From Neodothiora populina (lineage: Eukaryota), in NCBI RefSeq assembly GCF_041146345.1, contig NW_027191411.1, positions 558,001-622,000 on the forward strand: DNA of 64,000 bases. The letters are read 5' to 3'. The translations under genes and the position numbers were made by a program. The notes under the pieces were generated by a model, which saw nothing but the letters and a program-made list of their open reading frames with translations, was not told the DNA's origin and did not search any database. How positions within the stretch are numbered: position 1 is the stretch's first letter; each line of letters starts with the position of its first letter. Of this stretch, positions 1-5,586 are shown piece after piece.

Positions 1-1405
1 TGGACCGAGGTGGCCCTGTCACCAAGACCGCGAGTGAGGACGTTGAAGATTGACTGGTAGCGGAGCAACATGTCGCGGTCCTCGGCATCAGAGGTAGCGA
101 GAGCGGACAGGGGTAGCTTGACAGTGACATCGTGGCGCTGGACAAGGTTGTCTGCACGAAGGATGAATGTGGGCTCAAAAGTGTCGGCGAAAGGATCAGA
201 GAGCATCTGCAGGGTCGTCCTGGCCTCGCCGCGAAGGTGCTGGTAGGACGAAGCGGTCATCTTGTAAAGAATGTTGATGCCGCGGGCGCCGTCGAAGAAG
301 ACTGGCTGAGCGTCGTGGGCGGCGAGGGTCACGGTTCCGGCTTGAAGGACAGCGGGCGATCTGACCAGATCTTTGGCTGCGAGATATTGAAGAGTGGCCT
401 TGAACAGCTGGTAGCTGCTGTAGCCGCTCGACAGAAGGGGCATGCCATTTCCGCCACCAGTCTGCAATAGCACAGCCATCAAGGCGGCCCACTCGAAGTT
501 GCCGAATCCTCCTTTGGCGGTGTGGGAGGTCAAAGAGCGCTGTCTCAACCATACGCGGCCCAGCAGACAAGCGTCCTTGAATGCATCGCAGGTTGTCGAG
601 GCGTGATGCAGGAGTTTGAGGTAAGCGGTGAGCTGGGAGTCGGCCTGGATGGAAGCGTTGTAGAAAGGGGTGGCGGGAAGTGATGCCGAAGTGTTGTCGT
701 CGTCGTCGGCCTTGGCAGGTCTGACGCAGTTCTTCGAGGGAAGTAGCTTGTCCTTGGAAAAGACGTTGTCGGGAATGCTGGGGATGATGTTGATCTGCCA
801 CTTGTTCTCCGACTTCTGCTCTTTGGCGCTGACGACCAGGATTGGGTGCAGGGGGTTGTCGTGGAAATTGGCGAATTTGAGGGTCAGGTCCTTGGCAGAC
901 TTCAGACCAGCGGCAATACAGGCCAGGTAGTATGCCCTCTTGTACAGATATCTGTGGTTGACATAGTCCTTTTCCTGCAACAGAGAGGCAGGGATGGTCA
1001 CAAGCATGTCGATGGCCAGAGAAGCGTCGGTTCTCGACGAGAGCTTGAGGGGGAAGGAGCCGACGACGTTGATGTTTGCGGGCTTGGCGTAGGCCAACTT
1101 GTACTTGACGTCGAGAGCAGGTCTCGGATCGGGGAATGGAGTGGCGACCTTTGACTTCTTGATGAGTTCTCGCTCTGCATCGTGCACCGACTGAGCCTCT
1201 CTCGCCGGGATCAGCTCGATGGCCTTTTTCAGCTTGTGCAGAGCCTCTTCCGCGCTCGTCTCTCTCTTGCCGTGGCGAGGACGGATCTGGGCCAGCATCT
1301 CGTCGACCTGCAGCTTGAACATGTTGGATTTGAAGGTGCCGCCCGTGTATGCGGCAGCGCTGGCCTCGAGCATTCCCGCTCTCTTGGGGTTGTTCTTCTT
1401 GGCTG

Positions 1406-1439
<34 letters not shown>

Positions 1440-1697
1440 CTTCGACGAGGCTTTGGCGCTCTTTCGGTCGGCGGGTTGCTTGTCCGTCTCGTCCGTGTCT
1501 TCGTCTACGTCCTCGTCCTCGTCGCCGTCCATCTCTTCACTCGGATAGTCATCTTCGACGCTCTCGTCCTCGAATGTCATGTCCTGCTCTTCTCCGTCCT
1601 GGTTGAGTTCACGAAGCGAAGGTTCATCGCCGTCGCTGCTGCCTTGCTCCGAAGGGCTGTGACTGAGCTTTCTTCTTTTCGACGCCGGTACTGCCAT
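1..1697 (-). CDS. UTP22: U3 snoRNA-associated protein 22 (Nrap family), 5' part; runs off the left edge
   Basis: Own translation from ATG at 1697 (absent from the ORF track because there is no stop in the window): MAVPASKRRKLSHS, an acidic tract, then FKLQVDEML...FPDPRP...YKLAYAKPANINVVGSF...IDMLVTIPASLLQEKDYVNHRYLYKRAYYLACIA, typical of the Nrap/Utp22 N-terminal domain. Confidence 0.92.
1407..1436 (-). repeat. (CAG)10 microsatellite encoding polyQ in the Utp22 N-terminal tail
   Basis: Ten perfect CTG units on the + strand, in frame as Q10. Confidence 0.95.
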
Positions 1698-2308: not shown

Positions 2309-2569
2309 GCCATCCTATCCATTATTTGAAACTCATGTCCCTGTGAAACACTAATGCTTTGGGTCAGTAACGATCCATTCGATCACAGATGAGGAAATGG
2401 CAACTTGAAGTAGGGACTAGAGTGATCTACATGATACGAAAGAGGAAGAACACAACTCGGTCAAGAACTTTTCCTTCCAATCTCAATCGAATCAGCCACA
2501 CTCAGCGGGGAACATAACAGACACGGTCAAGCATAACGTCATTGTACCGCAGGCCGTGTCTTCCCATAA

Positions 2570-3475
2570 TCACTTCAAACTCTCAAAAAAACTTGGTCCA
2601 CCATAGCTGTTCCCCGCGTGAGTGACAGAGTTGCCACGAAACGTAATATGCCTGTAAACATGATCGTCTGACCCGTCTGACCCCACCATCGTGTACCCGG
2701 CAGCATACTCGTTCCCAAACCTCTGTTTTGAGTGGTCTTCGACAGAGAGGTATTCGAACGTCAGGCCACGCGACTTCGACACCTGAGAGATAGCTTCTTC
2801 GAGGAAGCGATCGCGCTTCTTGGCAGATTGCAAGAGTAATGCGAGGCTGTCGGGTTCGAGTCCTGAAACTTCTTGTCGGCAGAGTGCCACCTGCTTTTGG
2901 TGACTGGCGGGGAAGGTGTCTTCGAGTTCGCTGATGTGACCCGACAATGTACCAAACAGCGAGCTGGAGTGAGATCGGTCGTACAATACCAATGACGCAT
3001 TTTCCGTCATCTCGTGTCCAGCCAGAGCCCTGCCCTGGTATCCGAGTGCGTTCTTCCGTAGTGTCTGGTGTAAGGTTCCCTTGATCGGATCCGCGGACCG
3101 CAGCTCTGCACGGCTGTCGAGGGCTGTACTTTGCTCGGGATTGCCTTCACGCTGGATCTTTCTTCTAGATCTACGTGAAGATGCTTGTGCGTTGTCAAAC
3201 GCCCTATTGATTTGTCCTAGCAACTCCGTAGTATCCTCAAGCTCGGTCGCAGAGCAAGCCGACAGTCGAGCTGTTGACTTTGTGCCTGATGCCTTGGTGT
3301 TGATTTCCATGGCAGCTCCCCAACGCAAGTAACGCAAGTTAATGACCTGCAGCTCGAGGGAGTTCTTGGCAAAGTCTGCCTTAAAGTCCCGACCGAATTG
3401 GATACCTTCGAACGACTTGATACCCTTGGTGTAAAGTTTCGAAACATCTTCGACGGCTTCTCGGGTTCGTGACAT
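2570..3475 (-). CDS. het-S: HET-S/HET-s-like protein: HeLo domain plus C-terminal HET-s-type prion-forming (HRAM) domain
   Basis: SFEGIQFGRDFKADFAKNSLELQVINLRYLRWGAAMEIN aligns without gaps to HET-S CFEYVQLGRHFGRDYERCQLRLDIAKVRLSRWG (recalled sequence). The C-terminus has two pseudo-repeats ending in GN and the tail AGNSYGGPSFF, compared with HET-s IGNEYGGKGFW. ATG at 3475 chosen by alignment. Confidence 0.88.
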   Translation of the reverse strand: MSRTREAVEDVSKLYTKGIKSFEGIQFGRDFKADFAKNSLELQVINLRYLRWGAAMEINTKASGTKSTARLSACSATELEDTTELLGQINRAFDNAQASSRRSRRKIQREGNPEQSTALDSRAELRSADPIKGTLHQTLRKNALGYQGRALAGHEMTENASLVLYDRSHSSSLFGTLSGHISELEDTFPASHQKQVALCRQEVSGLEPDSLALLLQSAKKRDRFLEEAISQVSKSRGLTFEYLSVEDHSKQRFGNEYAAGYTMVGSDGSDDHVYRHITFRGNSVTHAGNSYGGPSFFESLK

Positions 3476-4185
3476 TCTGTGCAGCCGACGTTGTTGAGCA
3501 AAGTGAGTAACACGAAACGTTTTCATTGCGAAGCGATGCTTCACTATAAGGGCTCAACGAACGCAAGACCAGAAGCAATCATAATGTCGGGCAGCAGTAC
3601 AACCGATCTGAAGGTCAGAAGACCATGAGCTGTGACTCGGACACTTATCTTTCAGCTTCATCTGCCAGTCATCACTAGTCGGCCTTATTCCAACGAATAC
3701 ACTCAAGGGGTTGGCAGTTCGTCAGCACCGATCATCTCTTGGATTGCCCAGAACAGGCAAGAGCATATTGAGTTTGGACTTGGCATCTAGTCATGTGCTA
3801 ATGTGAAGTGGCAGCAGATATCTCCTTTTTTGTTACCGGAACCAAGGTCATGTCGCATGTGAGTCGCCAGGGAGGCCGTGAAGCGCAATCTATGAATGCC
3901 ATCCAGTTCGTGATTAGGAGCCGACGGCTATCATGTAAATGATCGCGGAGATACGATGGCAGAATGTGAGATGACAGCTTGTGACCCCCACGCTGCGCCA
4001 AAACCCAGGCGACCGCTGCAGGGAAATGCCGCCATTGGGCGCGAAACGGCTTCATCGCCCACGTCTTCGAGGCTTATCTTGCGCACCAGTATGGTTCGAT
4101 TCAATGCTAAGCACGGCAGCGGCCGCGACACCATTACTGGGCAAGAGATACGAGGATTCGTCATCGTCAGACATCCCAAACTCGA

Positions 4186-5586
4186 TCATCTTCCGAGTGG
4201 TCCAGTGATTGCACCAACCATGACAGCGGCCTCACGCTCCCAGTTGCCGACCTTCACACCTGGTCTGCTCATTGTGCTGGCACCGCTACCACCCCTGCCA
4301 GATGGCAACTCACTGCCTCTAGCGACACAATCCTTGACCATATAAAGTACCCTGTCTTTGTTACTTCTCAGTGTGCGAGCGCTGACGCCGCCTCTGTTCA
4401 GAATCTCCTGAACCCGAGAAGAGAGATTGCTGGCGAGTGTCCGCCAGAAGAACGAGGGCAGGGAAGAGGTGTCCAGAGCCGCTAGTAAAGGTGCAAGGAA
4501 ATTGGATTTGTTGTGAGTTGCGTCGCCCGAAGAGGCGCCAAGAAGAGGATGCACTGGTGTTCGGGTTGTAGAAAGTAGAGATTCCAAGGCGACAATGTTC
4601 TGGCATCGAGAGCTGATCTCCAACAATGTCTGGTCCAAGGTGGGTAGTGTTGCTAAGGCGCGCGCGAGAGATGCGAGACTTGACTGCAACGCTGTCTGTA
4701 GATAAGCCTGCAATGCAGAGATGAGCAGCTGAGGAGCAAAGGAGTCAATCGTCTGGCGTTGCTTGACAGGCGACAGCAAGTAAAGCACATTTAAAGCCGA
4801 GGTCGTCCTGGATTTTGTGTCTTCGTTCTGTGCGAATGTTGCCGCTCCAGGTCCAGCGGCAGACAACGACGGACTCGAAGTCGAAGCGAGCAACGAAGAC
4901 ATGGAAAATTCCCTGACGATCTGCTGTGCTCGAGCCAGCAGTGTCCTTTCGGACGGGTCAACAAAGTCACTCCTTAGAGTAGTAATGATCTTGACTCTGC
5001 CCAATCCTTCTCCTTCTTGATCGGGCGCCGTAGCACCAAACAATTGTCTTAATTGAAGCAAAGTATGCACCGCCGGCACTAATGCTCTGTGAGCCTCTCT
5101 CTTTCCACTATTTTCAGCACTGAATTCTGCCATCTGTCCCTCAAGCTGTCTCCCTAAGGACAGACATCGTCCCACTGCACGCCCTAGTTTTACAGTCGCG
5201 CATAGCCTCTCTGCTGCCAGTCGCACCTGCTCGGCAGCCTCATAACGCTGGACCACATCTCGCTCGAGTCTCTTGTATCCTTCTGTCAAGGCAGCAACTT
5301 GGGCTTCCACCTCGGACAGTATATGGGTTGAGGCTGTGGCACGAGTTTGTGTGTAGCTCAGGAGTGACAGAGCGGACTGGGTGGTCAACGTGTCAATGTG
5401 CGTGTCTACTTCCTGCACATCGAACAAGACCCGTGATAACGGAGTGGTGAGATCAAGAGGAGCATCTGTGGGGTCGTTGGTCGCGAGGATCAGCGTGTTT
5501 GCGAACGCCGTCGCCGAAAAGGAGGGATCCAGGAAGGTCTCGTAGTCGATGTATGATGCATCTCTCTCCGCTGTTGCGTCGGCCAT
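4186..5586 (-). CDS. COG5: Conserved oligomeric Golgi complex subunit 5
   Basis: SYIDYETFLDPSFSATAFANTLILATNDPTDAPLDLTTPLSRVLFDVQEVDTHID N-terminus and SSLPSFFWRTLA...NWEREAAVMV C-terminus, typical of fungal Cog5. Single exon. Confidence 0.88.
   Translation of the reverse strand: MADATAERDASYIDYETFLDPSFSATAFANTLILATNDPTDAPLDLTTPLSRVLFDVQEVDTHIDTLTTQSALSLLSYTQTRATASTHILSEVEAQVAALTEGYKRLERDVVQRYEAAEQVRLAAERLCATVKLGRAVGRCLSLGRQLEGQMAEFSAENSGKREAHRALVPAVHTLLQLRQLFGATAPDQEGEGLGRVKIITTLRSDFVDPSERTLLARAQQIVREFSMSSLLASTSSPSLSAAGPGAATFAQNEDTKSRTTSALNVLYLLSPVKQRQTIDSFAPQLLISALQAYLQTALQSSLASLARALATLPTLDQTLLEISSRCQNIVALESLLSTTRTPVHPLLGASSGDATHNKSNFLAPLLAALDTSSLPSFFWRTLASNLSSRVQEILNRGGVSARTLRSNKDRVLYMVKDCVARGSELPSGRGGSGASTMSRPGVKVGNWEREAAVMVGAITGPLGR

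What the first reader, a model, noticed from the sequence alone, without database searches (positions are those of the whole stretch)
2570..3475. Solitary HET-S-like amyloid-signalling gene with no NLR partner in the window
Seen: an intact HeLo + prion-domain ORF between a 5S gene and COG5, with only housekeeping genes across 64 kb and no NACHT/NB-ARC gene. Known: HET-S-type executioners are typically encoded next to an NLR (e.g. NWD2) whose N-terminal R0 amyloid motif templates them. Inference: this copy is either triggered in trans by an unlinked NLR, acts as an allorecognition/prion locus like Podospora het-s, or is a relocated accessory gene.
Basis: partly seen in the sequence, partly recalled or inferred. 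Interest (0 to 1): 0.75.

Follow-up and report, generated by a model that had tools for sequence, protein, structure and literature searches.

The report
Disarmed fungal cell-death prion gene
This fungal gene is a relative of the HET-S suicide protein that has kept its prion-like amyloid switch but appears to have lost the membrane-piercing helix that kills, so it may be a harmless trigger for an armed copy elsewhere in the genome.

Summary
Confirmed: an intact 301-aa HeLo + double HET-s-type amyloid repeat (HRAM3-like) gene at 2570-3475(-), with the nearest NLR 135 kb away. Being solitary is ordinary: 57 of 155 such genes had no NLR neighbour (PMC4518210). It looks like an independently evolved, non-toxic 'small-s' form. 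An armed paralog on contig C4 shares 20 of 42 repeat residues and faces a gene carrying the only matching R0 seed motif found. That gene is not an NLR but a member of an uncharacterised ~1,050-aa ascomycete family, and has a premature stop. Best reading (0.42): a disarmed, amyloid-competent copy that relays or templates the fold onto the armed paralog. Rivals: still toxic through an amphipathic helix (0.23), orphan in decay (0.22), allelic het-s/het-S-type locus (0.13). Nothing here is shown by experiment; expression, polymorphism and synteny could not be tested.

The parts
2570..3475 (-). ORF, 301 aa, HeLo + two HRAM repeats (P0001)
   Evidence: bases 2405-3369 matched without differences by a second run of the same sample
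3407..3475 (-). Helix 1 (residues 1-23): homolog of the HET-S membrane-inserting helix, here charged and strongly amphipathic; predicted unable to span a membrane
   Evidence: colinear with paralog P0004; not covered by the second run
2771..3406 (-). Rest of the HeLo helical domain (residues 24-235), fold kept; the Trp conserved in 96% of homologs is Leu162
2708..2770 (-). Amyloid repeat R1 (residues 236-256): core F5 L8 V10 Q16 F18, G19; E6 and E11
   Evidence: 25.8 bits
2606..2668 (-). Amyloid repeat R2 (residues 270-290): H3 (HRAM3 mark), core Y5 I8 F10 T16 A18, G19; R6 and R11 pair with E6 and E11 of R1
   Evidence: 34.3 bits
2573..2605 (-). C-terminal diglycine and aromatic tail (YGG..FF), like the HET-s loop whose F286/W287 are needed for prion activity
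   Evidence: sequence; PMC4055769 passages; equivalence of positions is my inference
3476..3526 (-). In-frame extension to an upstream ATG (17 more, mostly polar or basic residues); does not restore a hydrophobic helix
2189..2308 (-). Complete 5S rRNA gene, 261 bp downstream of the ORF; neighbour only
   Evidence: Rfam RF00001 79.3 bits, model 1-120 of 120
1..1697 (-). UTP22/Nrap (5' part), flanking housekeeping gene
4186..5586 (-). COG5, flanking housekeeping gene

Best explanation
The gene encodes a disarmed ('small-s-like') HET-S paralog. Its HeLo domain still folds and its two HRAM3-like repeats can still take the beta-solenoid amyloid fold, but helix 1 has been turned from a membrane-inserting into a purely amphipathic soluble helix, so conversion does not kill. 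Because it is non-toxic it can carry and spread the amyloid state, and because its repeats resemble those of the armed paralog on C4 it can template that protein, acting as a relay or non-allelic trigger of cell death (by the HET-s/HET-S precedent; a damping decoy role is the lesser variant). The in-genome seed that fits best is the R0 at the N-terminus of the non-NLR gene facing the C4 paralog. Shown: domains, fold model, helix chemistry, repeat similarity, R0 location. Inferred: loss of toxicity, amyloid formation, cross-seeding, any role in the cell.
For: Helix 1: best 19-residue hydropathy -0.04 against a mean of 1.63 (sd 0.38) in 138 homologs; 8 charged residues against a mean of 1.8, maximum 5. 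Only 2 of 106 N-terminal HeLo + two-repeat proteins are this hydrophilic. Loss is local: 3 of 12 conserved columns kept in residues 1-24 against 39 of 48 elsewhere (Fisher p 4.3e-4); identity to three relatives in 1-24 is 4-6 of 22 against 11-14 of 22 for the paralog, while the other regions are about equal or higher. Loss is patterned: hydrophobic moment 1.71 exceeds all 138 homologs (max 1.46), same direction (-109 vs -110 degrees), shuffle p 0.0014. No splice rescues it: 34 candidate introns, none with a canonical branch site, best hydropathy 0.9. Frame intact although four-fold sites are saturated against the paralog (26% identity). Repeats share 20 of 42 residues with the C4 paralog (13 with C3, 3 with C18) and the same charge pairs at positions 6 and 11. 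The C4 R0 is the top score (35.0 bits) of 360,617 21-mers and the only R0 among 22 genome-wide pattern hits. Precedent: loss of the predicted helix makes HET-S het-s-like (F25S, PMC3531502); lack of toxicity is what lets HET-s propagate (PMC4344463).
Against: No experiment, no expression data, no orthologs: the closest relative is 43% identical and its record lacks the N-terminus, so selection on this gene itself is not measured. Codons 1-35 were not covered by the second run. Amphipathic, charged helices form pores in plant CC-NLRs and MLKL (recalled), so toxicity is not excluded. Part of the helix moment is inherited. A seedable killer in the same genome would make a spontaneous prion self-lethal. 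Cross-seeding depends on particular side chains, not overall identity (bioRxiv 2020.07.06.188508); R0 matches R1 at only 3 and R2 at 6 of 21 positions. The C4 R0 gene has an in-frame stop at codon 304 where the family has Gln. Trp162 and neighbours are also lost, as in decay.
Confidence: 0.42

Rival explanations
1. Ordinary solitary HET-S-type executioner that still kills, using an amphipathic helix to line an oligomeric pore, and is seeded in trans.
For: Helix 1 keeps length and register and has the highest hydrophobic moment of the set; HeLo-PFD overlap and fold are kept; 57 of 155 HRAM effectors lack a linked NLR and unlinked signalling is suspected in print (PMC9815663 section 27).
Against: A hydrophobic helix is predicted in nearly all of more than 100 HeLo domains (PMC3531502 section 22); a single polar change abolishes toxicity in HET-S; here five charges lie in residues 9-20 and the summed membrane-insertion cost is the highest of 139 (18.8 against a mean of 4.4).
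Confidence: 0.23
2. Orphan in slow decay: after separation from its receptor the gene lost selection, and the helix changes are the first damage.
For: [quoted passage not shown]
Against: Damage is concentrated in 24 codons and spares the buried face; 301 codons hold no stop or frameshift, and 0.1 neutral substitutions per site would leave it stop-free with probability 0.015; repeats, charge pairs and aromatic tail are kept; no RIP-like dinucleotide shift beyond the neighbours' range that I could call.
Confidence: 0.22
3. Allelic het-s/het-S-type incompatibility locus: other strains carry an armed allele at this same position and this strain carries the prion-forming allele.
For: Direct precedent in Podospora, where the het-s allele has an inactive HeLo and no working NLR; solitary position among housekeeping genes.
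Against: HET-s and HET-S differ at 13 residues whereas this helix differs from armed relatives at 16-18 of 22 positions, which implies an old change; no second strain was available; the system is reported as apparently specific to P. anserina.
Confidence: 0.13

Closest known systems
HET-s (small s) of Podospora anserina
   Same: HeLo + two-repeat beta-solenoid domain; HeLo predicted non-toxic; no working linked NLR.
   Different: HET-s is an allele 13 residues from HET-S, inactivated mainly at position 33; here the whole helix is recharged, the armed counterpart is an unlinked paralog at 31% identity in the same genome, and the repeats are HRAM3-like (no PF11558 hit).
HET-S/NWD2 and HRAM effector-NLR pairs (PMC4518210, PMC3321046)
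   Same: Domain order, repeat pattern (G19; core 5, 8, 10, 16, 18), charge pairs at 6 and 11; solitary members are common (57 of 155).
   Different: No hydrophobic N-terminal helix, no adjacent NLR; the fitting R0 lies on a gene with no NACHT/NB-ARC domain.
HELLF/FNT1 (HRAM5)
   Same: HRAM two-repeat effector; R1 here has Q16, an HRAM5-type mark.
   Different: HELLF has a HeLo-like domain and QxFG motif; R2 here has H3; class assignment is by eye against the text of the paper, not against its logos.
Viral decoy RHIM amyloids (PMC13506858 passages)
   Same: Amyloid motif without killing function that could join a death-signalling polymer.
   Different: Those are viral and RHIM-based; HET-s biochemistry predicts triggering rather than damping.

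Membership tests
HeLo-HRAM effectors (HET-S family) | N-terminal HeLo domain | tested here: met
   PF14479 E 2.9e-20; fold match to 2WVO/2WVN/2WVQ
HeLo-HRAM effectors (HET-S family) | Two 21-residue repeats with G19, hydrophobic core pattern, 6-18 residue loop, aromatic tail | tested here: met
   loop of 13 residues; strands at both repeats in the model; R1 has Q16 and R2 T16/A18 in core positions
HRAM1 (canonical HET-s PFD) | PF11558 match, Asn at position 3 | tested here: not met
   no PF11558 hit at E<=1; position 3 is Leu and His
HRAM3 | His at position 3 | tested here: inconclusive
   met in R2 and in the C4 R0, not in R1; no clustering against the published set was run
Toxic HET-S type | Hydrophobic N-terminal transmembrane helix | tested here: not met
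   (hydropathy scales, not TMHMM)
Toxic HET-S type | Adjacent NLR with matching R0 | tested here: not met
HET-s type prion | Amyloid and heritable prion state in vivo without toxicity | not testable with these tools
   needs experiment
HET-s type prion | Armed allele at the same locus in other strains | not testable with these tools
   no second strain covering the gene
Fungal NLR (for the C4 R0 gene) | NACHT or NB-ARC domain with P-loop | tested here: not met
   no Pfam hit in either part or NBD in 10 relatives; no Walker A by the scan that found the C18 NACHT

The most novel reading that the evidence does not exclude
A second, independently evolved natural HET-s-type prion: an old, selected, non-toxic paralog that relays an amyloid signal to an unlinked armed HET-S, in a pathway whose R0-bearing receptor is not an NLR but a member of an uncharacterised ascomycete protein family whose N-terminal slot can hold an amyloid motif or a PNP_UDP effector.
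Probability: 0.17. Interest if true: 0.85.

Novelty: new variant of a known kind. Interest (0 to 1): 0.58.

Why it matters
The papers read describe the non-toxic [Het-s] prion as apparently specific to Podospora anserina (PMC4344463), homologs elsewhere as HET-S type (PMC3321046), and name natural disarmed forms as something still to be looked for (PMC7885112). A paralog that lost only the membrane helix would show that toxin-to-prion conversion recurs and can be kept long term, and it makes that directly testable with the standard Podospora and yeast assays. An R0 on a non-NLR protein would widen the receptor side of fungal amyloid signalling; the 2015 survey looked only for NLR neighbours.

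Tried and rejected
Word-index homolog search with P0001 found nothing among 2,214 candidates; the full HMMER search found 332. No RNA holder listed, so nothing on expression; other runs touched only short pieces and gave no polymorphism in the gene. Metagenome scan with the closest relative: 599 pattern matches, none confirmed, so synteny and linkage in relatives are untested. C18 NLR R0 as the trigger: 6 identities to R1 but low similarity (BLOSUM 9, 13.4 bits), Gln at position 3, and its own linked HeLo-like effector fits it better (32, 40): rejected as first choice. Hidden N-terminal exon: rejected. Mobile-element origin: upstream DNA single-copy, only chance-size repeats, 5S gene whole; Starships that target 5S genes were seen in a search listing only. 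Recent duplication from the C4 paralog: four-fold sites saturated; sister status neither shown nor rejected (p-AU 0.27). Family of the C4 R0 gene as a regular amyloid partner: 0 of 120 proteins and 0 of 80 loci had an R0, 0 of 80 loci a HeLo neighbour (both sets favour the usual N-terminus and many contigs are short); region search for R0-bearing relatives found none of 52. Its fold: no match at E<=0.001, best Z 3.6, no Atlas hit; this shows neither a new fold nor absence of relatives. Complex prediction of the two prion domains: no answer, score 0.01, no evidence either way. A Fisher table was mis-entered; one search holds the correct one. PMC4601334 not held.

Full report
Observation. The ORF at 2570-3475(-) is stop-free and encodes 301 residues. 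Pfam HeLo matches residues 12-210 at E 2.9e-20 and PF11558 does not match. HET-S/HET-s N-terminal domain structures are the only sequence hits in the PDB and the only four fold hits at E<=0.001 for an AlphaFold model of pLDDT 90.1, which also shows strands at both C-terminal repeats. The repeats (residues 236-256 and 270-290) have G19, the core pattern and opposite charges at positions 6 and 11, as described for HRAMs (PMC4518210, parts 1-4 of 5 of the text read; supplement searched by terms only). A matrix from 178 homolog repeats, built without this genome's proteins, gives 25.8 and 34.3 bits. The 5S gene, UTP22 and COG5 are confirmed. Of 19 further long window ORFs sent to Pfam, 16 hit ordinary families and 3 hit none; none is a NACHT or NB-ARC.

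No NLR nearby. Genome-wide family searches gave 10 NPHP3_N matches at 8 loci (one an AAA ATPase by my reading), 3 NB-ARC loci and 17 AAA_16 matches, of which I read 10 and scanned all 17 for repeats; these counts are lower bounds. The nearest NACHT loci are 135 and 168 kb away; a Walker-A scan found nothing in the window, 40 kb upstream or 10 kb downstream while finding the control on C18. This is not rare: 98 of 155 HRAM effectors had an adjacent NLR, unlinked signalling is suspected in print (PMC9815663, passages and sections 27 and 31), and a second paralog on C3 is also alone.

The helix. In HET-S the first ~34 residues insert into the membrane, and this helix is predicted in nearly all HeLo domains (PMC3531502, passages and section 22). 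The window protein is colinear with its C4 paralog from Met1 but the helix is charged. Among 139 of 153 proteins that could be scored (14 lacked the region), its best 19-residue hydropathy is -0.04 against a mean of 1.63; the one lower value belongs to a protein with a long N-terminal extension. It has 8 charged residues where others have at most 5. Two of 106 N-terminal HeLo + two-repeat proteins are this hydrophilic: this one and an unnamed metagenome protein, P0045, on a long branch. The loss is local (3 of 12 conserved columns kept in 1-24, 39 of 48 elsewhere, p 4.3e-4) and lineage-specific. It is patterned: V8, V11, L14, Y15, I19 and F22 remain on one face, and the moment of 1.71 exceeds all 138 homologs in the same direction (shuffle p 0.0014); part of this pattern is inherited. 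None of 34 conceivable introns has a canonical branch site or restores normal hydrophobicity. Caveats: a second run of the same sample confirms 2405-3369 but not codons 1-35; the 96%-conserved Trp is Leu162.

Partners in the genome. Two paralogs exist: C4 (33%) and C3 (26%), both with hydrophobic helices. The C4 paralog shares 20 of 42 repeat residues and the same charge pairs; HET-s and its Fusarium homolog cross-seed (PMC3321046 passages), HET-s and HELLF at 17% do not, and specific side chains decide (bioRxiv 2020.07.06.188508 passages). The C4 gene lies head to head, 552 bp apart, with a gene that begins with a single repeat. That R0 is the highest score of 360,617 21-mers in 360 kb of this genome (35.0 bits) and the only R0 among 22 genome-wide hits to a GN/D-x3-H-x-G-N/D pattern (control 19 hits); R0s lacking that pattern on genes I did not fetch would be missed. 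It resembles R2 of the window protein (BLOSUM 34) as much as the C4 repeats (36, 27). The gene is not an NLR: no Pfam domain, 872 relatives of about 1,050 residues, the named ones all ascomycetes, a confident model of one relative (pLDDT 84.5) without a fold match. The family normally starts with its own conserved segment; here R0 replaces it, and 3 of 120 relatives carry a PNP_UDP domain there, an effector that NLRs also use. An in-frame TAA stands at codon 304 where the family has Gln; I could not check it in reads. No R0 or HeLo neighbour was found in 80 metagenome loci of the family, so the fusion is rare. The one NLR with an R0 (C18, NACHT-WD) is of the Gln-3 class and has its own HeLo-like partner.

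Mechanism. Shown: architecture, helix chemistry, repeat likeness, place of the R0. From known biology: a HeLo-dead protein with a working prion domain propagates harmlessly and triggers an armed HET-S (PMC4344463, PMC5485727 passages). Inferred: the window protein does this for the C4 paralog, as relay or non-allelic trigger (0.42). It also keeps the diglycine-aromatic tail that HET-s needs for prion activity (PMC4055769 passages), which the C4 paralog shows less clearly. The frame has stayed open although silent sites are saturated against the paralog, which argues against long neutral decay but does not date the helix change. Rivals: still toxic through an amphipathic helix (0.23; pores by such helices are recalled, not tested), orphan in decay (0.22), allelic het locus (0.13).

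Novelty. Family membership is known; the variant is not described in what I could read. Searches and passages of PMC12881547, PMC13506858, PMC7885112 and PMC12261475 gave no natural disarmed HeLo-HRAM outside Podospora and no non-NLR R0 donor in fungi; subscription papers are not in the library, one relevant review was not held, and supplements of PMC9815663 and others were not read and may list such cases. Earlier scan notes showed no look-alike by sequence. Verdict: new variant of a known kind, interest 0.58.

Noticed in passing
L005:4470-9053 (G000:C4 257.3-261.9 kb): Armed HeLo-HRAM gene head to head with a non-NLR gene that begins with an HRAM3-like R0 and has an in-frame stop at codon 304; family uncharacterised, no known fold found, 3 of 120 relatives carry PNP_UDP at the N-terminus. 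Deserves its own study.
   Followed up: partly
L027:5100-10000 (G000:C18 27-32 kb): Canonical pair near a contig end: NACHT-WD40 NLR with near-identical WD repeats and a Gln-3 R0, divergent from a HeLo-like (PigL_N) effector with two matching repeats.
   Followed up: yes
L008:4560-5453 (G000:C3 1,363 kb): Second solitary HeLo-HRAM gene, hydrophobic helix kept, second repeat weak (10.7 bits), between a REV1-like and an IPC-synthase-like gene (names by my reading).
   Followed up: partly
protein P0045 (unnamed metagenome contig of 1.7 kb): Another HeLo + two-repeat protein with a hydrophilic helix 1 and without the conserved Trp; possible independent disarmed case.
   Followed up: partly
proteins P0115, P0130: HeLo proteins with a long N-terminal extension, a hydrophilic helix-1 region and a C-terminal motif that looks like PP (recalled pattern).
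   Followed up: no
proteins P0160-P0279, residues 1-40: The C4 partner's family starts with a conserved, low-confidence segment rich in Asn and Phe that might itself be an assembly or membrane motif.
   Followed up: no
L047:4938-6308 and L048:5224-6405: Two further HeLo-domain genes with long low-complexity tails and no amyloid repeats.
   Followed up: no
L030:4000-7100 (G000:C7 1,745 kb): PNP_UDP-NACHT NLR region in several short frames, with fragments of a second PNP_UDP upstream; looks broken.
   Followed up: no
window:6116-9145: 1,009-aa Ser/Pro-rich ORF with a long array of ~21-residue repeats; no Pfam family over the cut-off.
   Followed up: no
window:3837-4020: 184 bases identical in contigs of two runs labelled as another organism, with little else of the stretch covered; single-copy in this genome.
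   Followed up: partly
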